IMG/VR virus record: IMGVR_UViG_3300015185_000027
DNA: 8,073 bases
Origin: a virus
Taxonomy: Duplodnaviria > Heunggongvirae > Uroviricota > Caudoviricetes
Direction: 5' to 3' (one strand)
In this document: one piece after another, positions 727 through 7,295 of the stretch
How the letters are laid out: each line of letters starts with the position of its first letter
Position numbering within the stretch: position 1 is the first letter of the stretch
Notes under the pieces: model-generated
Databases searched by the model: none
Seen by the model: the letters and a program-made list of their open reading frames with translations, nothing else
What the model was told of the DNA's origin: nothing
Made by a program: the position numbers and the translations under genes

Positions 727-1067
727 CAGTTCACCACCTGCTCAATCGTACAACTGAAATCACTGTACCTGGCGTTATCTGTGACGCTCCACTCCCGGCA
801 TACCACCCTCACCGTCCGGTTATGTTTCGGCGGTCGCCACAAAAAGGCACGGTAACCACCATGCCACGATAAAAACTCTTCCAGCCATCGCCGGGTCGCC
901 TCATCCGTCACCCGGAACACCGCCTGAAACGTCTTCAGTCGGGCATTAAGTCCCGTCGGGCGGCGCTGTTCATAACCGTCACCAAACCGTACCCTCGCCA
1001 CCGACGGTTTCTCACTCACCTGCATCCCTTCACGCGGGACCAGATGCAGCGTTTTTATCTCAGCCAC
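726..1067 (-). CDS. M: Minor tail protein M (lambda gpM family), 113 aa, GTG start
   Basis: Contains the VRFGDGYEQR...GLNA.LKT motif and ends ...EQVVN, matching my recollection of lambda gpM. The start codon is GTG (plus-strand 'cac' at 1065..1067) preceded by GGAGGAA 8 nt upstream; it overlaps the tape measure 3' end by 8 nt. Confidence 0.85.
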   Translation of the reverse strand: MAEIKTLHLVPREGMQVSEKPSVARVRFGDGYEQRRPTGLNARLKTFQAVFRVTDEATRRWLEEFLSWHGGYRAFLWRPPKHNRTVRVVCREWSVTDNARYSDFSCTIEQVVN

Positions 1068-4000
1068 TCAGCATTCCTCCGTCACGTCGCATGGACAGCA
1101 TCACCGCCTGCACCCGCTGGTCAATCAGTTGCACAAGGCTGCCCGCAGCTTCCGGCCCTATCTGGCCATTAGTCCCGTCATTCTGAATGGCGATATGGTA
1201 GACCGGGGAATACACCAGACCTGCACTGCCGTTCATACTGCCCACCGCTCGCACACCCAGCGAGCCATCCGCCGCCCGGGTCAGGGGCATAATGGCTTCA
1301 GGACCGGCCTCCCCCATCAGTCCCGCCCCTTTTGCAAAGGCAAAGTACGTGGGCGTATCCACAATACTGTTGCTGTACGCACTCAGGTTTGCCGAGGTAT
1401 ACACCCCGCCTTTTGCATTGGCCACCGCACCGCCCAGCCAGCTACCAATACTGCCGATAAATCCTCCCGCTCCGGACATACTGTTTGCCGCCGTCTTGAT
1501 CCCGTTGACAATCGCGGCATTCATAAGAACTTTTGATATTTCCTGCAGCACTGATGAGGCCCAGCTGCGCCATTCCACTTTATTTCCGTTCAGCATCTCC
1601 GTGATGTTATTCACCATCCCTGAGATACCCTCCGTCGCCAGCTGTGCTGCCTGTGAGGCGTAATCGGACGCATTATCCACCCAGTTACTGAATCCCTCCT
1701 GCAGCCCTTTCTGCCAGTCCGCACGCTGCACATCCGATTCGGCATAAAAGGCTTCCTGCTCTTTCAGACGTTCACTCAGATACTGCGCGTTCTGTGCCAG
1801 AGCCTGTCTGTAAAAATCCTCACTGATATCCCCGGTCTGATACTGAGACTGAAGGTCCGCATCCTTCTGGCGGAAACTGTCGCGGATCTGCTGCAACTCC
1901 CGCATGCGTTCACGGAGCCGCTCTCCCTGCCCGTACCCCAGCAGTTCCGCTTCATTTGATGCACGCGCAGCCACATTATCATTCTTCAGGGTCTCTTCCC
2001 GGGACCGCAACTGCTCCCGGATTTTTTGCTGGTCAATCAGGGCCGCATTGCGCAGCAGTTCCTGCTTCTGCATCTCCGTCAGGGTTTTCAGTTCGCCCTG
2101 CGCAGTCTGGTATTTCAGCTTCGCCAGCTCTGTATTCTGCCCCGCAAGTGCCAATTGCTCTTTCTGCTGCTTCAGCAGCCGGGAAAAACTGTCTTCCGCT
2201 TTTTCCGTCTCTGATTTTCCACCCCGGGATTTGGGTTTATTCGCCTCGTTATTGCGCCAGGCTTCCAGGGCATTACTGATATAACGTTGTCTCGCCTCCT
2301 GATACGGTTCACCCACAAAACCGAGGTCATCCGCCGCATACCCCAGTCGGACACGCTCTTTTTCTTCCCCTTTCAGTCTGGACAGGGCCAGCTCACGCTC
2401 TGTTTTTGTCAGGGCACTCTGCTGTTTATCATCCAGAGTGGCCTGTGGCAGCCGTAACGGCACATTCACCAGTCCCTGCCGCTGCTGAAGCAGTTCATTA
2501 CCCAGCCCCAGCAGACGGTTGAATTCCGTATGCTGACCGTTCATAACCAGCATGGACTGGTACACCTTATTCTGCTCTGCCGCCTGCTGACGAATTAACG
2601 CCACACGACGGTCTTCCAGCCCGGCAAGCACATCCTGAATGGACTGCGCTTTTTCCTGCATCTGTGCCAGACGGGACTGCTCAACGGCAAGCTGCTCTGT
2701 TGCCTGAGAAAGCCCTTCCGTCACGGTCTTCACCGATGTCAGATGGTTTATCATGAATCCGTCACCGGTTGTCCAGCCAGGGTTAGCCAGAACATACTGA
2801 TATCCAGCGATTTTTTCCTGCAGGGATTTCACCCGGCTGGCCTGTTCATCAATCAGCCGGTTCTGCTCTGCCAGCGCCGCCCGTGTTCGTCCTTCATTAT
2901 CTGAGGCTTCAGGCAAAGACATTGACGGCGTTTTATGCGCGATTTCATCTATCGTCAGTGCATACTGGCGCGCTGACTCCCTGGCCTGCTCCTGATTCTG
3001 GTACAGCGTATACCATGCTGCTGCCCCCAGCATCACCAGTCCGGGTACGCCACCAACCAGTCCCAACGCACCAGTCATCAGACGTGAGCCCACCGCCGTT
3101 GTACTGTTCAGCGCATTCTGGGCTGCGGTTCTGGCAGCAATATTTCTGTTCAGGCGTTCCTGTGTGGCCGCCAGACGGGCTTCTGCAGCAATCTGCATCT
3201 CCGTCCCGCGGGCTGCCGCCACAGCCTGCTGTGCACGGTACACGGCTGCCCTTGCCCGCGCCGTGGCAATCTGCGTCCCCCTGAGCTGTGCTTCCGCCAG
3301 TGCCACTTCATTACGTGCTGCCGTCACAAGTCCTGCCGTGGCAGACACCGCTCCGGAGGCCATATTGCCAAAGTACCGGGCAACCCCGACGGCAACCAGC
3401 GCCCCCGCGGCTGTTGCCACATTATCAATATTACCGGCAACACCGTTCAGCACGCCGGAGAGCGTTTTCGTCGCTCCGCTGGCTTCATTCGCGCCACCCA
3501 CCCAGGCCATAAAGGCGTTTTCCACCTTTGTGATCCCGTCAGAGACCGTTTCCGGCATGGCGGCATATTCATCACGCAATACCCCCAGCTGGCTGATTAA
3601 CGCAGGAACGACTTTATCCGCCGTCAGTTTGCCGTCGTCCGCCATCGCCTTAAGGTCTTTACGGGCCACGCCCATACCCGCAGCCAGTGCACGTACGATC
3701 CGGTCTCCGCTTTCATTGACCGAATTAAATTCCTCACCGCGTAACACACCCTGTGCCAGCGCCTGGCTGAACTGGGTGATCACCGAGCCCGCCTCTGCCG
3801 TACTGGCACCGGAGATTTTCAGCCCCGTGGAAATGGCCTCCGTCACCTTCAGCACATCATCAGCACTGTAACCATATTCACGCATTGAGGCTGCCGAGCG
3901 GGCAAACAGGGCCGCATTATCTGAAAATGCCGTGCCCGTCCGCTGGCTGATATCCATCAGCACTTTCTGTGATGACGAAAATTCATCGGATGACTGCGAC

Positions 4001-4302
4001 GCCTGTTTCAGTCGGGCATTCACGGAACTCCATTCATCGGCCAGAGAAATCAGGTGTCCGGTGGCAAAGGCACCTGCAAATGCCCCCGCCGTTCCGGCAG
4101 CTGAAGCGCGGATTTCCGTCAACTGGCTGTTCAGCTCAGCCAGGGCGCGTCGCTGCTCCCGGGCGACTGCGGCAGCCTGACGCCCGCCATTCTGCAGGGT
4201 CCGGTAATATTCACTGCCCATGCGGGAAGCCCGCTGGATCTCCGACTGGAATGACTGCGAATTTGCCGAAATTTTGATAATCAGTTCACGTAACGTCGCC
4301 AT
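1060..4302 (-). CDS. H: Tail length tape measure protein (gpH-like), 1080 aa
   Basis: Very long ORF sitting between the G/G-T chaperone pair and M, as in lambda. Long Ala/Gln/Arg/Glu-rich stretches that look helical, a central Gly/Ala-rich hydrophobic segment (GALGLVGGVPGLVMLGAAAWYTLY, about 3003..3074) and a Gly-rich C-terminus, all typical of tape measure proteins. ATG at 4302..4300 preceded by GGAGAAAGGTGA. Confidence 0.9.
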   Translation of the reverse strand: MATLRELIIKISANSQSFQSEIQRASRMGSEYYRTLQNGGRQAAAVAREQRRALAELNSQLTEIRASAAGTAGAFAGAFATGHLISLADEWSSVNARLKQASQSSDEFSSSQKVLMDISQRTGTAFSDNAALFARSAASMREYGYSADDVLKVTEAISTGLKISGASTAEAGSVITQFSQALAQGVLRGEEFNSVNESGDRIVRALAAGMGVARKDLKAMADDGKLTADKVVPALISQLGVLRDEYAAMPETVSDGITKVENAFMAWVGGANEASGATKTLSGVLNGVAGNIDNVATAAGALVAVGVARYFGNMASGAVSATAGLVTAARNEVALAEAQLRGTQIATARARAAVYRAQQAVAAARGTEMQIAAEARLAATQERLNRNIAARTAAQNALNSTTAVGSRLMTGALGLVGGVPGLVMLGAAAWYTLYQNQEQARESARQYALTIDEIAHKTPSMSLPEASDNEGRTRAALAEQNRLIDEQASRVKSLQEKIAGYQYVLANPGWTTGDGFMINHLTSVKTVTEGLSQATEQLAVEQSRLAQMQEKAQSIQDVLAGLEDRRVALIRQQAAEQNKVYQSMLVMNGQHTEFNRLLGLGNELLQQRQGLVNVPLRLPQATLDDKQQSALTKTERELALSRLKGEEKERVRLGYAADDLGFVGEPYQEARQRYISNALEAWRNNEANKPKSRGGKSETEKAEDSFSRLLKQQKEQLALAGQNTELAKLKYQTAQGELKTLTEMQKQELLRNAALIDQQKIREQLRSREETLKNDNVAARASNEAELLGYGQGERLRERMRELQQIRDSFRQKDADLQSQYQTGDISEDFYRQALAQNAQYLSERLKEQEAFYAESDVQRADWQKGLQEGFSNWVDNASDYASQAAQLATEGISGMVNNITEMLNGNKVEWRSWASSVLQEISKVLMNAAIVNGIKTAANSMSGAGGFIGSIGSWLGGAVANAKGGVYTSANLSAYSNSIVDTPTYFAFAKGAGLMGEAGPEAIMPLTRAADGSLGVRAVGSMNGSAGLVYSPVYHIAIQNDGTNGQIGPEAAGSLVQLIDQRVQAVMLSMRRDGGMLSG

Positions 4303-4320
4303 TCACCTTTCTCCGGGCGT

Positions 4321-4341
4321 AAAAAAACCGCCTCAGCGGTT
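4321..4341 (-). terminator. Weak terminator-like hairpin plus U-run between the G-T stop and the tape measure start
   Basis: Minus strand reads GAACCGC-TGAG-GCGGTTTTTTT: a 4-6 bp GC stem, 4-nt loop, then a run of 7 T. It is followed directly by the tape measure ribosome-binding site. Short stem, so at most a partial terminator or attenuator. Confidence 0.3.
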
Positions 4342-4349
4342 CTCATCAT

Positions 4350-5029
4350 TCATGACTGTGCTGCAAAGCTCAGCGCGTCTTCCAGCGCCGCAAACGGATC
4401 CACCTCCGGCTTATCCTCATCCTCGCCCCAGCAGAGCATGGCGTCCTTCAGTGCAACATTCATCCCCTGTGCCCCAAAAACCGCTTTCACGATCTGTGCA
4501 TTACGGATATCCCCGCGCTCATCACCCAGCGGGGATACCCTGTCGAACTCCATCCACATCATCGCCTCGCTCACACTCAGGCTGTGCCGCAGTTCGGATA
4601 AGGTGCGCCCCAGACGGAGCGCAAGTCGCATCAGAAAGCGAATTTCCGGGCGGGCTACTTTTTTCTGGCCGACTCTGCATCAGCGATCAGTTCCAGTGCC
4701 TGACGCAGCAACCGGGCATGTACCGGACCATAGACGGCCAGCACCTGCTCACGGTCGTCCGGAGCGAACACCCGCTGCAGATCCGTATCACACAGGACAT
4801 CGCAGAACAGCGTCACATCCGCTTCCAGGTTACGGCGGGTTTTCGCCACCACCGACAGGGTATCGTCATCCTCTCCATCACCATTGAGCACTTCCTGCCA
4901 CAGATACCAGGCCTCTGCCGAAGGCTCCCGCAGCACCACGCTGACATTACCCCATTCCGGCACCTTCACCGTTTTATGACGAAACCCTGACAGTCTGGCC
5001 AGCGCCAGCGTTTTCAGATCCTTTTTCAT
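4350..5029 (-). CDS. Tail assembly chaperone G-T fusion made by programmed -1 frameshift (~226 aa); the T part has no start of its own
   Basis: The -1 frame is open from the slippery site through 4350: ...ARKK then VARPEIRFLMRLALRLGRTLSEL...FAAQS, stop TGA at 4350..4352. The overlapping G and T frames in this position match the conserved G/G-T arrangement of long-tailed phages. Confidence 0.65.
4655..5029 (-). CDS. Tail assembly chaperone G-like (zero-frame product), 124 aa
   Basis: Small acidic ORF immediately upstream of the tape measure and downstream of the major tail gene, ending ...ADAESARKK-TAG with a slippery heptamer at its last codons. I place the start at ATG 5029..5027 (MKKDLKTL...) with AAGGGG upstream; the ORF-track start at 5077 would overlap the major tail gene by 34 nt. 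Confidence 0.75.
   Translation of the reverse strand: MKKDLKTLALARLSGFRHKTVKVPEWGNVSVVLREPSAEAWYLWQEVLNGDGEDDDTLSVVAKTRRNLEADVTLFCDVLCDTDLQRVFAPDDREQVLAVYGPVHARLLRQALELIADAESARKK
4658..4664 (-). promoter_or_regulatory. Slippery heptamer A-AAA-AAG (-1 ribosomal frameshift site) followed directly by the zero-frame TAG stop
   Basis: Minus strand reads GCC AGA AAA AAG TAG; A_AAA_AAG is a canonical -1 slippery sequence (the same heptamer as in E. coli dnaX). A one-base backward slip continues into the T frame (GTA GCC CGC ...). Confidence 0.7.
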
Positions 5030-5043
5030 GATGACCCATCCCC

Positions 5044-5760
5044 TTATCCGGCGGCTGCGCTCACTGTCACGGTGCATTCAACAGACGTCACACTCTGTGC
5101 TTTCTCTGCCGAATCGGTCACCACGCAGGTATATTTCCCCGCATCAGCGGACTGCGCACCTGGCTTACTGAAGGTGTCTGTCGTCTGCCCGTCAACCGGC
5201 TGACCATCCTTCTTCCAGGCGTATTTATACGGCGGCGTTCCCCCGTTGGCACTGACTGACATTGTCAGCAGCGCACCTGTATTCACGGTAAGTGTTTTAT
5301 CCAGATTTTTCACAAACGCCAGCGGTACCACAAAGGACACCGGTTTGCCTTTCATACGCAGTGAAAACGTTGCTGCCACCACGCCGTTGGTACCGGATGA
5401 CCAGGTGTGCTGACGCACTTCCGCCAGGAACTTAAAGCCCTTACCGGACGGAAACAGCACCTTAAACGCATACAACGCGTCATTGTCATAGGCATCACGC
5501 AGGGCGTTCTGGGCCTGATTCAGATAAAAATTACCCGACATGGAAATCTCAGACGACGCCCCCAGACCGTTGATGTTCTCCTGCTCGGTGGAGCAGAGCG
5601 TGGTCACATCAATATCCTGTTTCTGACCGGCGGTGAACTGGACTTCCTTGATGGTGCAATCCAGGCGCAGATATTCCGCCTTATCCATAGTTTCAGCAGT
5701 CGCCGGGGCAGATGAAATCATCACCTGCGTCAGCTGTGAGCGTTCATACAAAGCAGACAT
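5044..5760 (-). CDS. Major tail protein (gpV-analogous) with a C-terminal Ig-like domain, 238 aa
   Basis: Sits immediately upstream of the G/G-T pair. ATG at 5760..5758 preceded by a strong AGGAGG site; the ORF-track N-terminal extension to 5895 would overlap the upstream gene and cross the intergenic hairpin, so I reject it. The C-terminal ~80 aa (..TPPYKYAWKKDGQPV...AGKYTCVVTD..) has the Ig-like signature known from lambda gpV and other tail tube proteins. Confidence 0.85.
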   Translation of the reverse strand: MSALYERSQLTQVMISSAPATAETMDKAEYLRLDCTIKEVQFTAGQKQDIDVTTLCSTEQENINGLGASSEISMSGNFYLNQAQNALRDAYDNDALYAFKVLFPSGKGFKFLAEVRQHTWSSGTNGVVAATFSLRMKGKPVSFVVPLAFVKNLDKTLTVNTGALLTMSVSANGGTPPYKYAWKKDGQPVDGQTTDTFSKPGAQSADAGKYTCVVTDSAEKAQSVTSVECTVTVSAAAG

Positions 5761-5776
5761 TCTGCCTCCTGATAAT

Positions 5777-5798
5777 AAAAAACCCGCACGCGGCGGGG
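5777..5798 (-). terminator. Terminator-like GC hairpin plus U6 in the intergenic region upstream of the major tail gene
   Basis: Minus strand reads CCCGC-CGCGT-GCGGG-TTTTTT (5-bp GC stem, 5-nt loop, six T), placed 13 nt upstream of the AGGAGG of the major tail gene. Could equally be an RNA processing or stability element. Confidence 0.3.
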
Positions 5799-5824
5799 TA
5801 TGGTTTTGTAGAAAAAAGAAAAAG

Positions 5825-6169
5825 TCACACCGTGACCTGAAACTCCAGGGTTGCACGGTAACAGCGGTTTTCCGGAATATAGTCCTGCATTTCACTGACG
5901 GATCCCGGGGCCAGCAGCATTATGGCTTCACGGGCGTCCTGACGTATCTGACGCGCCTGCGTCACAGTCCCGGCATAAACGTCTATCTGCACCGACACTG
6001 AGGACTCCGCCTGCCCGCCCATCACGTCCGCTGACACCGATGAAATCAGGCTGAAAACCACCCACGGAAGCGCCACCGACGGCCTGCCATCCAGCAGGGG
6101 GACCACATACGGGTACACCTGCCCGCCGGCAAGATGCGCCAGATGAGGATACAAATCCGCCTCCGTCAT
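5825..6169 (-). CDS. Small tail-proximal structural protein, probable tail terminator or tail completion protein (DUF3168-like; position of lambda gpU), 114 aa
   Basis: ORF of 114 aa immediately upstream of the major tail gene; start ATG overlaps the upstream stop (ATGA). Family assignment is from position and motif recollection (..VYPYVVP...PWVVFSL..), not a search. Confidence 0.55.
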   Translation of the reverse strand: MTEADLYPHLAHLAGGQVYPYVVPLLDGRPSVALPWVVFSLISSVSADVMGGQAESSVSVQIDVYAGTVTQARQIRQDAREAIMLLAPGSVSEMQDYIPENRCYRATLEFQVTV

Positions 6170-6612
6170 CGTCTCAGTACCTCATCAATGGCCCGGTTCA
6201 TCCGCGCAATCGCCACCTGAGCTGCCTGTTCACTGCGCACATCAAACGCCGGGCGCACAAACGGGTGCGGTGGCATATTCACAGTCCCCATTTCCACAAA
6301 CCGCCAGTAGAAAGCATTGCGCGGGTTATCCGCCTTCATAGTGTTATCGCTGTTACCGGTGTCCGGATTAACACCACGGATATGGACACCGGATTCCATC
6401 CCGCCATCGCGGGAGCGCCGGGAAAGGATCACCACATTGCGGCGCAGTTTTCCCCTGCGTACCGGTGCCCGTGACACCACTTCTTCTTTCAGCACATTCG
6501 CACCCGCACGGGTTGCCTCACGCAGCACCCGGTTATTTTCCGCACCACTCAGAAGCTGCAAATCGCGGCTGATGTCCTCCAGCCCCGAAAAATCCAGCAG
6601 GGTTTCGATCAT
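6166..6612 (-). CDS. HK97 gp10-family phage protein (neck / tail completion component), 148 aa
   Basis: An N-terminal Leu-rich stretch followed by ...RAPVRRGKLRRNVVI resembles my recollection of the HK97-gp10-like family. Coupled to both neighbours by ATGA overlaps. Confidence 0.65.
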   Translation of the reverse strand: MIETLLDFSGLEDISRDLQLLSGAENNRVLREATRAGANVLKEEVVSRAPVRRGKLRRNVVILSRRSRDGGMESGVHIRGVNPDTGNSDNTMKADNPRNAFYWRFVEMGTVNMPPHPFVRPAFDVRSEQAAQVAIARMNRAIDEVLRR

Positions 6613-6959
6613 TTTTCCCCTCCCAGCCGACAGAGAATTTCCAGACGCCCGCCGGTCGCATCCGGCACGGGCAGCCCGACAACGTTCAGGATCCGGTCAC
6701 GCCATGGACCACTCAGCACATGAAGTCGTGACGCTGCCGTGATTTCCCGACCGGACTGACCGCGCACCCAGATGCGGATTTCCGCCTGCGCCATTTCCGC
6801 ACCGGACTGCATCCGCTCCCGGCTGCTCCTGCCACGGATATCCGCATGAATTTTCCCGCATGACACCCATTCTTCCGTCATTTCTCCGGCAGCGTTACGG
6901 GTTAACACCGGATTCAGAACACTTATCATCTGTGTCAGACGACCTGCAGATATTGCCAT
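6609..6959 (-). CDS. Head-tail adaptor / head closure protein (Phage_H_T_join-like), 116 aa
   Basis: Size, position directly after the gp6-like gene, and general sequence character fit head-tail joining proteins of HK97/SPP1-type phages. ATG 6959..6957 preceded by GAGGAGG. Confidence 0.6.
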   Translation of the reverse strand: MAISAGRLTQMISVLNPVLTRNAAGEMTEEWVSCGKIHADIRGRSSRERMQSGAEMAQAEIRIWVRGQSGREITAASRLHVLSGPWRDRILNVVGLPVPDATGGRLEILCRLGGEK

Positions 6960-6968
6960 TCCCCCTCC

Positions 6969-7295
6969 TCATAACACCGTCGGACAACGCAAATCGTAAA
7001 TCAGCACGGAAACAGAAAACGGCAGCTCCCCCTGAAGCAGTTCTTCCCGCTCCGCAAGATCCGGATTCCGGTACAGCATCCCGGTCAGTCGCATGGCAGC
7101 CCCCTTCATCCGGGTTAATGCCTCGCCCGGGATCAGTTCACCGTCCTCACGGATCACTTTATCCCGGCTGCCCTGAATGTAGGCCAGCAGCACGGCGGTA
7201 GCCTGACAAACCTTGTCCATCAGCATGTCATCATCCGCGTCATGGTCGACACGCAGATGTGCCTTGATCTCTTCCAGTGTCAGTAATGCCGTCAT
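6969..7295 (-). CDS. gp6-like head-tail connector protein, 108 aa
   Basis: N-terminus MTALLTLEEIKAHLRVDHDADDDMLMDK... is the characteristic start of the HK97 gp6-like connector family as I recall it. ATG 7295..7293 preceded by AGGAGG and overlapping the upstream stop (ATGA). Confidence 0.75.
   Translation of the reverse strand: MTALLTLEEIKAHLRVDHDADDDMLMDKVCQATAVLLAYIQGSRDKVIREDGELIPGEALTRMKGAAMRLTGMLYRNPDLAEREELLQGELPFSVSVLIYDLRCPTVL

What the first reader, a model, noticed from the sequence alone, without database searches (positions are those of the whole stretch)
5761..5870. Structured, U-rich region between the head-tail joining genes and the major tail gene
The 64-bp gap upstream of the major tail gene is the largest non-coding stretch in the window. 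On the coding (minus) strand it carries a U-rich tract (CUUUUUCUUUUUU) right after the upstream stop, then a GC hairpin with U6 (5777..5798), then a strong AGGAGG site. A second nested inverted repeat (ACCGTG...CCTG...CAGG...CACGGT, 5829..5859) lies in the last codons of the upstream gene. This looks like a partial terminator, an RNase processing site or a transcript-stability element that could set the ratio of tail-tube to joining proteins; it also sits at the junction between the HK97-like and lambda-like modules.
Basis: partly seen in the sequence, partly recalled or inferred. Interest (0 to 1): 0.4.

Follow-up and report, generated by a model that had tools for sequence, protein, structure and literature searches.

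The report
Terminator hairpin before major tail gene
The gap in front of the major tail gene of this E. coli prophage holds an ordinary terminator-shaped RNA hairpin that nearly all HK97-like phages keep at this spot and that the HK97 genome record already marks as a putative terminator.

Summary
Only one part is more than chance: the GC hairpin (5797..5783, minus strand), its U6 run (5782..5777) and the AGGAGG site.

On its own the hairpin is unremarkable (-8.5 kcal/mol, z -1.4), and the whole 110-nt region folds no better than shuffles (z -0.04). Its position, however, is strongly conserved. In the tube-protein family, 103 of 108 distinct junctions carry a GC hairpin plus T-run ending 18-26 nt before the start codon, against about 0.03 expected. 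These junctions come from E. coli, Salmonella, Klebsiella, Morganella, Cronobacter, Phytobacter and Burkholderia phages. The stems differ through compensatory changes.

HK97 (AF069529) and HK542 already annotate a terminator at this position. Lambda has a 7-nt gap and no hairpin.

The U-rich tract and the nested inverted repeat in the upstream gene's last codons are specific to this clade and not conserved.

The junction is not HK97-like versus lambda-like: the tube gene is HK97 gp12-like.

Similar hairpin/U-run/ribosome-site units precede the tape-measure gene (4341..4326) and, in the related phage YYZ-2008, the capsid gene.

Most likely it is an intrinsic terminator that Q-modified polymerase reads through. 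Its role in gene dosage or mRNA stability is untested.

The parts
5783..5797 (-). GC stem-loop CCCGC-CGCGU-GCGGG (5 bp, all G-C; 5-nt loop)
   Evidence: Found by the terminator scan. Folds at -8.5 kcal/mol, 83% of the ensemble. Nearly invariant in 81 close relatives while the spacer beside it varies. Stems covary across 22 diverse phages.
5772..5782 (-). U-tract UUUUUUAUUAU immediately 3' of the stem
   Evidence: A T-rich run follows the hairpin in 103 of 108 distinct junctions, including those of GC-rich Burkholderia phages.
5758..5770 (-). Shine-Dalgarno AGGAGG (5770..5765), 4-nt spacer, ATG start of the major tail (tube) gene (5760..5758)
   Evidence: PHROG and Pfam profiles align from residue 1 of the ATG-5760 protein. 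The distance from the hairpin end to the ATG is 18-26 nt across the family.
5798..5824 (-). G-free, pyrimidine- and A-rich spacer (CUUUUUCUUUUUUCUACAAAACCAUAC) between the stop codon and the hairpin; hypervariable
   Evidence: Substitutions and indels that are not multiples of three occur among near-identical prophages, with gaps of 58-68 nt. Relatives have a different sequence here. This shows the gap is not translated.
5829..5859 (-). Nested inverted repeat inside the last codons of the tail-terminator gene; specific to this clade and not part of a conserved element
   Evidence: -13.4 kcal/mol, z -2.2. Across 19 relatives 52.6% of cells are paired against 51.0% in shuffles (86 of 500 shuffles reach the observed value).
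5822..5838 (-). Weak hairpin AGGUCAC-GGU-GUGACUU spanning the stop codon, followed by U5CU6; a possible weak tandem terminator found only in this clade
   Evidence: -6.3 kcal/mol, z -2.2. One variant compensates for a change (L012) and two variants break the stem (L047, L071).
5825..6169 (-). Upstream gene: tail terminator / tail completion protein (gp17/DUF3168-like, equivalent to HK97 gp11)
   Evidence: Pfam PF11367 and PHROG 347; 48% identical to HK97 gp11 and 63% to the HK542 protein.
5044..5760 (-). Downstream gene: major tail (tube) protein, HK97 gp12-like, with a C-terminal Ig-like domain
   Evidence: PHROG 158, E 1.7e-116; Pfam Phage_TTP_11 and Phage_tail_2 plus Ig domains; 79% identical to HK97 gp12 over residues 1-140.
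4319..4341 (-). Sister element: hairpin AACCGC-UGAG-GCGGUU plus U7 in the T-H gap, followed by GGAG and the tape-measure ATG (4302)
   Evidence: -10.8 kcal/mol, z -4.0. An equivalent hairpin precedes the tape-measure gene in HK97 (where it is annotated), HK542, SP-016, Klebsiella ST13, AsXd-1, L146, L168 and PARCL1pr.

Best explanation
The element is an intrinsic (Rho-independent) terminator-type hairpin with a U-tract. It lies in the gap between the tail-terminator gene and the major tail (tube) gene of an HK97-like late operon, and the tube gene's ribosome-binding site follows it directly.

It is one of several such units that punctuate the late operon at the borders of translationally coupled gene blocks. 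In this phage type they sit before the capsid, tube and tape-measure genes and after L.

Shown here: the anatomy, the orientation, the strict conservation of position, and the compensatory evolution of the stem.

Inferred:
1. Unmodified RNA polymerase terminates or pauses here. The site would then insulate the tail genes from transcription that did not start at the Q-controlled late promoter, for example in the lysogen.
2. During lytic growth the Q-modified polymerase reads through. The hairpin remains in the long late mRNA, where it can also block 3' exonucleases and mark a segment boundary.
3. The high output of tube protein comes from its own strong ribosome site in a U-rich, unstructured context, not from the terminator.

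With only 5 G-C pairs, this copy is probably a weak, leaky terminator compared with the 7-9-pair stems of HK97 and the Burkholderia phages.
For: - Hairpin plus U6 on the sense strand of the operon.
- The same architecture is present in 103 of 108 distinct junctions of the tube-protein family, against about 0.03 expected.
- Stems differ through compensatory changes: CCCGC, ACCGCC, AGACCGC, AAGCTGC, CCACC, CCCGGC, GGCCCGC. Covariation score is 0.408 against 0.170 in shuffles (0 of 500 reach it), and 87% of cells are paired against 33-54% when slid.
- Both the stem and the T-run are kept, even in GC-rich Burkholderia phages.
- In close relatives the hairpin, U-tract and ribosome site are nearly invariant, while the adjacent spacer is riddled with substitutions and indels.
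- The HK97 record annotates a 'putative terminator' at 6692-6719 between genes 11 and 12, plus six more in its late operon. The HK542 record annotates rho-independent terminators on both sides of its tube gene.
- A complete phage carrying this module (YYZ-2008) has an antitermination (Q) gene upstream in the same orientation and further hairpin/U-run units before its capsid and tape-measure genes and after L.
- That Q-loaded polymerase ignores intrinsic terminators is established knowledge (for example PMC6606751, listed).
Against: - No RNA-end or termination data were available for this site.
- The stem here is short (5 bp, -8.5 kcal/mol) and no better than 13% of shuffles.
- A terminator placed just before the most abundantly needed tail protein runs against the stoichiometry argument.
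- The U-tract could instead be conserved as a translational enhancer, and the hairpin as an RNA-stability element, so conservation alone does not separate these roles.
- Whether the Burkholderia, Morganella and other relatives use Q-type antitermination was not checked.
Confidence: 0.6

Rival explanations
1. The element is an mRNA processing and stability signal (selective RNA processing and stabilisation). The late transcript would be cut in the unstructured spacer upstream. The hairpin would then cap the 5' end of a tube-gene segment, or the 3' end of the head and neck segment. A second hairpin downstream closes the segment: after the tube gene in HK97 and HK542, and before the tape-measure gene here. 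The resulting long-lived segment would raise tube-protein output.
For: - Hairpins flank the tube gene in HK97, HK542, ENT39118 and L179, and flank the tube-G-T block in this window.
- The spacer 5' of the hairpin is G-poor and unstructured in all relatives.
- This direction of effect fits the need for about 30 times more tube protein than joining proteins.
- Intergenic stem-loops set subunit ratios in this way in the cip-cel operon (PMC4423207, listed).
Against: - A stability hairpin does not need an adjoining U-tract, yet the U-tract is conserved everywhere.
- No cleavage-site motif is conserved in the spacer, which is hypervariable.
- There are no RNA-end data.
Confidence: 0.22
2. The element provides translation-initiation context. 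The U-rich stretch between the hairpin and the Shine-Dalgarno site would act as an S1-binding or standby enhancer. The hairpin would lock upstream RNA away so that the ribosome site stays open, giving strong independent initiation after a block of translationally coupled low-abundance genes.
For: - The distance from hairpin to ATG is constant and short, 18-26 nt.
- The U-run always abuts the Shine-Dalgarno site.
- The same unit sits in front of other genes that begin a new translational block, such as the capsid and tape-measure genes.
- Upstream genes overlap start-to-stop, so they are translationally coupled.
Against: - The tape-measure protein and gene K products are low-abundance, yet their genes have the same unit in front.
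- HK97 and HK542 also have such hairpins 3' of genes.
- The spacing equals the minimum needed to fit a U-tract plus a ribosome site, so it need not have been selected.
Confidence: 0.12
3. The element is the 3' end of an Hfq-binding small RNA, either derived from the 3' UTR or transcribed from its own promoter, like other sRNAs encoded on prophages of enterohaemorrhagic E. coli.
For: - A U-rich stretch followed by a terminator hairpin and poly-U matches the usual Hfq-binding module.
- Prophages of the same strains encode many sRNAs (PMC4104026, PMC13502914).
- There are weak sub-threshold Rfam hits to isrK.
Against: - No Hfq crosslinking peak in the published Sakai table lies at the Sp10 copy, 1956518-1956585.
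- HnrS/EcOnc11 maps between the lysis and terminase genes instead.
- No promoter-like site lies nearby.
- The isrK hits (18-27 bits against a gathering score of 50) rest only on the generic terminator hairpin.
- The region 5' of the hairpin is not conserved.
Confidence: 0.04
4. The element has no function. It would be a chance hairpin, a scar of module exchange, or part of an N-terminal extension of the tube protein, since the reading frame is open back to GTG 5895.
For: - Taken alone, the hairpin's energy is not exceptional.
- ORF 5044..5895 runs through the gap.
- RefSeq annotates a longer tube gene in YYZ-2008 that starts at the upstream stop codon.
- The identities of the two flanking genes to relatives are incongruent.
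Against: - Position is conserved with covariation across distant hosts.
- Gap-length variants that are not multiples of three occur among near-identical prophages, which rules out translation of the gap.
- Protein profiles start at ATG 5760.
Confidence: 0.02

Closest known systems
Putative terminator between genes 11 and 12 of phage HK97 (AF069529, 6692-6719), and the rho-independent terminator at 6642-6664 of HK542 (NC_019769)
   Same: - The flanking genes are orthologous: tail terminator upstream and HK97-type tube protein downstream.
- The strand is the same, and so is the order hairpin, U-run, ribosome site, ATG.
- The distance to the start codon is the same, about 20 nt.
- The stem core is similar (CCCGC...GCGGG in HK97).

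   Different: - The stem here is shorter: 5 bp against 8-9 in HK97 and 7 in HK542.
- The loop differs.
- This prophage lacks the second terminator that HK97 and HK542 carry right after the tube gene; its tube-to-G gap is only 14 nt.
- The spacer sequence upstream is unrelated.
Terminators within Q-antiterminated late operons of lambdoid phages (tR' and terminators associated with morons)
   Same: It is an intrinsic-terminator shape inside an operon transcribed by Q-modified polymerase. A Q gene is present upstream in YYZ-2008.
   Different: - It is not next to the late promoter.
- It does not follow a moron.
- Lambda itself has no hairpin at its U-V junction, where the gap is 7 nt.
Intergenic stem-loops of selective RNA processing and stabilisation systems (for example the cip-cel operon, PMC4423207)
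   Same: These are intergenic hairpins inside an operon that encodes subunits of one assembly needed in very unequal amounts.
   Different: Those hairpins act after endonuclease cleavage and need no U-tract. No processing has been shown here.
T7 T-phi terminator after the major capsid gene (from my own knowledge, not tested here)
   Same: It is a leaky intrinsic terminator inside a phage structural-gene transcript that is thought to shape relative mRNA doses.
   Different: T-phi lies downstream of the abundant gene, so it raises that gene's relative dose. The element here lies upstream of the abundant gene.

Membership tests
Intrinsic (Rho-independent) terminator | GC-rich stem-loop | tested here: met
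   5 G-C pairs with a 5-nt loop, -8.5 kcal/mol. This is at the weak end of the range for such stems.
Intrinsic (Rho-independent) terminator | U-tract immediately 3' of the stem, on the transcribed strand | tested here: met
   UUUUUUAUUAU starts at the first base after the stem, on the strand of all the genes. The plus-strand version has only a poor T-run.
Intrinsic (Rho-independent) terminator | Structure maintained by selection (covariation, conservation of position) | tested here: met
   103 of 108 distinct junctions carry it. 5 of 7 pairs show changes on both sides, and no shuffle out of 500 reaches the observed covariation score.
Intrinsic (Rho-independent) terminator | RNA 3' ends or polymerase release at the U-tract | not testable with these tools
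   No Term-seq table could be read. This needs Term-seq or in vitro transcription.
HK97 gene 11-12 intergenic terminator (orthologous element) | Lies between orthologues of gp11 and gp12, about 20 nt before the gp12 start codon | tested here: met
   The upstream protein is 48% and the tube protein 79% identical to HK97. The distance to the ATG is 22 nt here and 20-21 nt in HK97.
HK97 gene 11-12 intergenic terminator (orthologous element) | Sequence homology of the hairpin itself | tested here: inconclusive
   The core CCCGC/GCGGG is shared, but the element is too short and too variable across the family to tell common descent from convergence.
Rfam families (isrK RF01394, Trp leader RF00513) | Score at or above the family's gathering threshold | tested here: not met
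   isrK scores 18.3 bits at this site and 27.1 bits at 4321-4388, against a threshold of 50. Trp leader scores 16.9 against 41. The alignments rest on the terminator hairpin only.
Hfq-bound prophage sRNAs of enterohaemorrhagic E. coli (EcOnc series, HnrS) | Published Hfq crosslinking peak or mapped sRNA at the locus, with its own promoter | tested here: not met
   No entry in Table S2 of PMC4104026 lies at the Sakai Sp10 junction. HnrS maps elsewhere. No promoter-like site lies nearby.
Lambda-type U-V junction | Tight junction between the tail-terminator and tube genes, with lambda V-type tube protein | tested here: not met
   Lambda has a 7-nt U-V gap and Sakai Sp15 has a similar tight junction. 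Here the gap is 64 nt and the tube protein is HK97 gp12-type.

The most novel reading that the evidence does not exclude
The hairpin, U-run and ribosome site would together form a dedicated post-transcriptional expression module of HK97-like late operons, conserved from enterobacterial to Burkholderia phages. Its main job would not be termination. Instead it would define stable, separately translated mRNA segments, through a 5' or 3' protective hairpin plus a U-rich ribosome-loading site, and these segments would set virion subunit ratios.
Probability: 0.2. Interest if true: 0.4.

Novelty: new member of a known kind. Interest (0 to 1): 0.15.

Why it matters
The practical value is small.
- It fixes the true start of the tube gene at ATG 5760. 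The longer RefSeq model in YYZ-2008 runs through non-coding sequence.
- It shows that the terminator annotated in HK97 in 2000 is not incidental. It is kept with compensatory changes across hosts as distant as Burkholderia, always just in front of the tube gene's ribosome site.

This raises a modest open question. Why do Q-antiterminated late operons keep terminators in front of their most abundant structural genes? Term-seq on induced lysogens or simple reporter assays could answer it. It does not point to a new kind of system.

Tried and rejected
1. Small RNA. I checked whether the recently described multicopy prophage sRNA HnrS (EcOnc10-12) or any other published Hfq peak lies here. HnrS maps between the lysis and terminase genes of Sakai Sp10. 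No peak in Table S2 lies at the Sp10 copy of this junction.

2. Rfam. There are only sub-threshold hits to isrK, Trp leader and a viral frameshift element, all explained by the generic terminator shape.

3. Long-range pairing of the pyrimidine tract with the Shine-Dalgarno site, seen in the predicted fold of the gap. It adds only about 3 kcal/mol, the whole gap has z -0.7, and the tract is absent or different in relatives.

4. N-terminal extension of the tube protein through the gap (ORF 5044..5895). Rejected because of indels that are not multiples of three and because the protein profiles start at ATG 5760.

5. Terminator for the plus strand. The T-run is poor and not conserved.

6. Nested inverted repeat as a conserved structure. 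Rejected.

7. Direct experimental evidence. Literature searches for termination or processing at this junction found none. The HK97/HK022 genome paper (PMID 10860721) is not held. The Term-seq supplements are not held.

8. The genome-contig scan returned only 3 loci. The viral collections supplied the comparison set.

Full report
**Context.** All genes in the window lie on the minus strand and form the head-tail joining and tail part of a lambdoid late operon:

| Gene | Coordinates |
|---|---|
| Adaptor Ad1 | 6969-7295 |
| Head closure Hc1 | 6609-6959 |
| HK97 gp10-like neck protein | 6166-6612 |
| Tail terminator (gp17/DUF3168-like) | 5825-6169 |
| 64-nt gap | 5761-5824 |
| Major tail (tube) protein with C-terminal Ig domain | 5044-5760 |
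| Chaperone G | within ORF 4655-5077 |
| Chaperone T | 4350-4631 |
| Tape measure | 1060-4302 |
| M | 726-1067 |
| L | 28-726 |

The 701 bases around the gap occur at 95% identity or more in 92 phage records, mostly Stx1a-, Stx2a- and Stx2c-converting phages and YYZ-2008. They also occur in 1245 of 5426 complete E. coli genomes, often in several copies. This is therefore a very common prophage module.

**The observation.**
- stop codon TGA, 5827..5825
- CUUUUUCUUUUUU, 5824..5812
- hairpin CCCGC-CGCGU-GCGGG, 5797..5783
- U6, 5782..5777, continuing as AUUAU
- AGGAGG, 5770..5765
- AUG, 5760
- the nested inverted repeat, 5859..5829

Judged within the window alone, none of it is statistically striking.
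- The 110-nt region folds exactly like its shuffles (z -0.04).
- The hairpin is -8.5 kcal/mol (z -1.4).
- The gap as a whole has z -0.7.
- The inverted repeat is -13.4 kcal/mol (z -2.2).
- The simple terminator scan finds 11 sites in the window against 6.5 +/- 2.8 in shuffles.

**Comparison with relatives settles the question.** The N-terminal domain of the tube protein is 79% identical to HK97 gp12. It has relatives down to about 35% identity in phages of Salmonella, Klebsiella, Morganella, Cronobacter, Phytobacter and Burkholderia.

I fetched the junction from annotated phages and from IMG/VR contigs. I then located each tube-gene start with tblastn and scanned for hairpin plus T-run with one fixed rule.
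- Of 257 loci, 251 have such a site ending 18-26 nt before the start codon. That is 103 of 108 distinct junction sequences.
- The rate elsewhere on the sense strand is 0.69 per kb, so about 0.03 would be expected per 45-nt window.
- The five exceptions are two single-base stem mutants that keep a T-run, one 4-bp variant, one rearranged locus, and Pseudomonas phage PARCL1pr, which has only a 6-nt gap.

The stems are not the same sequence. Examples are CCCGC/GCGGG here, AACCCGCC in HK97, AGACCGC in HK542, AAGCTGC in Morganella phages, GCCACC/GGTGG, GCCGCC/GGCGGC, CCCGGC in Phytobacter and GGCCCGC in Burkholderia phages. On an alignment of 22 diverse junctions:
- 87% of cells are paired, against 33-54% when the 3' partners are slid.
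- 5 of 7 pairs show changes on both sides.
- The covariation score is 0.408 against 0.170 in shuffles, and no shuffle out of 500 reaches it.

Among 81 near-identical prophages the hairpin, U-tract and Shine-Dalgarno site are almost invariant. The spacer between the stop codon and the hairpin, in contrast, is full of substitutions and indels that are not multiples of three.

**What is not conserved.** The nested inverted repeat lies in the last 12 codons of the tail-terminator gene. Across 19 relatives its pairs are no better kept than in shuffles: 52.6% against 51.0%, with 86 of 500 shuffles as high. It is a local feature of a conserved peptide-coding stretch.

The U-rich tract varies in length. 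It is partly deleted in some close relatives and replaced by C/A-rich sequence in HK97, HK542 and others.

A weak hairpin over the stop codon (5838..5822, -6.3 kcal/mol), followed by the U-rich tract, could act as a feeble tandem terminator. It is broken in two of the four variants seen.

**Already known.** The HK97 GenBank record (AF069529) annotates a 'putative terminator' at 6692-6719, between genes 11 and 12. It annotates another right after gene 12 and five more along the late operon. These lie at the portal/protease border, after the capsid gene, before H, before I and before J. The HK542 RefSeq record annotates rho-independent terminators on both sides of its tube gene. The element in this window is the counterpart of the first of these.

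Lambda has a 7-nt U-V gap and no hairpin, and so does the lambda-type tail module of Sakai Sp15.

**The module-junction claim.** The gap is not where HK97-like meets lambda-like sequence. The tube gene is HK97-type, and the order adaptor, closure, gp10, gp11, tube, G/T, H, M, L matches HK97.

There is, however, a mosaic joint among HK97-like phages between these two genes:

| Protein | Identity to HK97 | Identity to HK542 / SP-016 |
|---|---|---|
| Tail terminator | 48% | 63% |
| Tube protein (N-domain) | 79% | 50% (HK542), 78% (SP-016) |

**A wider pattern.** The same unit of hairpin, U-run, ribosome site and start codon sits in the T-H gap of this window. There the hairpin is AACCGC-UGAG-GCGGUU (4341..4326) with U7, at -10.8 kcal/mol and z -4.0. 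An equivalent unit lies in front of the tape-measure gene of most relatives.

In the complete phage YYZ-2008 further units precede the capsid gene and follow L. That phage has an antitermination (Q) gene upstream in the same orientation. The late operon is thus punctuated by terminator-shaped hairpins at the borders of translationally coupled gene blocks.

**Mechanism.**

*Shown:* an RNA hairpin with an abutting U-tract on the sense strand, under purifying selection for pairing and for the U-run, at a fixed short distance from the tube gene's ribosome site.

*Inferred:* because both the stem and the U-tract are kept, even in GC-rich Burkholderia phages, the selected activity is most likely intrinsic termination or pausing of unmodified RNA polymerase.
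- Q-loaded polymerase is known to ignore such signals. In lytic growth the site should therefore be read through, and it would act mainly on transcription that did not start at the late promoter.
- The hairpin would also persist in the mRNA as a barrier to 3' exonucleases.
- I put this at about 0.6.

*Main rival (about 0.2):* the hairpins define stable processed segments. The tube gene is bracketed by hairpins in HK97 and HK542, and the tube-G-T block is bracketed here. This rival fits the stoichiometry better.

A role of the U-run and hairpin in translation initiation is also possible (about 0.1) and does not exclude the others.

Termination here would lower the transcript of the protein needed in the largest amount.

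**Other readings tested.**
- *Small RNA.* The Hfq crosslinking table for strain Sakai has no peak at the Sp10 copy of this junction. The multicopy prophage sRNA HnrS lies between the lysis and terminase genes.
- *Rfam.* Only sub-threshold hits, carried by the terminator shape.
- *Translated extension.* The open frame through the gap (ORF 5044..5895) is not translated, given the frame-breaking length variants and the profile matches that start at ATG 5760. The 786-nt tube gene model in RefSeq YYZ-2008 is therefore probably too long.

**Verdict.** This is a real, conserved, terminator-type element. It is ordinary in kind and already annotated in the type phage. The breadth of its conservation and its constant position in front of the tube gene are a modest addition. 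Its actual role needs RNA-end mapping or reporter assays.

Noticed in passing
window 4319-4341 (minus strand), in the 47-nt gap between T (ends 4350) and the tape-measure gene (starts 4302): A second terminator-shaped hairpin, AACCGC-UGAG-GCGGUU plus U7, followed by GGAG and the tape-measure ATG. It folds at -10.8 kcal/mol (z -4.0), stronger than the element under study. It explains the weak Rfam isrK hit at 4321-4388. Equivalent hairpins precede the tape-measure gene in HK97 (where it is annotated), HK542, SP-016, Klebsiella ST13, AsXd-1 and even PARCL1pr.
   Followed up: partly
window 5044-5895 (minus strand); L001 6373-7158 (YYZ-2008 YYZ_gp59): The tube-gene reading frame stays open through the whole gap, back to GTG 5895. 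RefSeq YYZ-2008 annotates a 786-nt gene that starts at the GTG overlapping the upstream stop codon. Length variants of the gap that are not multiples of three, and profile matches that begin at ATG 5760, indicate that the longer model is an over-extension.
   Followed up: yes
window 5825-6169 versus 5044-5760 (minus strand): The identities of the two flanking genes to relatives are incongruent. The tail terminator is 48% identical to HK97 but 63% to HK542 and SP-016. The tube protein is 79% identical to HK97 but 50% to HK542. In L012 the tail-terminator gene is 89% identical while both of its neighbours are 99%. This indicates a mosaic joint at or near the gap.
   Followed up: partly
window 846-865 (minus strand), inside gene M (726-1067): A strong terminator-like hairpin, GGCATGGT-GGTT-ACCGTGCC (8 pairs) plus T5, lies inside a coding region on the sense strand. 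It is also present in YYZ-2008 at 41257-41276. Its significance is unknown and it may be chance.
   Followed up: no
L001/L267 (YYZ-2008) record positions 30055-30072 and 42103-42120: Further hairpin plus U-run units of the same design lie directly upstream of the capsid gene and just after gene L of the same phage type. The late operon is punctuated at several block borders.
   Followed up: partly
L002 (E. coli 2013C-4465), locus 528-2964: In one genome an ISEc31/IS30 composite is inserted in the last codons of the tail-terminator gene. It truncates that gene but leaves the hairpin and the tube gene intact.
   Followed up: no
window 7292-7996 (minus strand): The ORF upstream of the adaptor gene gives a weak sub-threshold Pfam hit to carbohydrate-binding module CBM_5_12 (23 bits against a cut-off of 26). 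It corresponds to the C-terminal part of the 861-aa protein annotated as 'portal protein' in YYZ-2008, which is split into two ORFs in Sakai Sp10.
   Followed up: no
window 5044-5500 (minus strand), tube protein residues about 149-227: The major tail protein carries a C-terminal immunoglobulin-like domain (Pfam Ig_3, Ig_2, I-set). The domain is present in HK97 gp12 but absent from the shorter HK542, Morganella and Burkholderia homologues.
   Followed up: no
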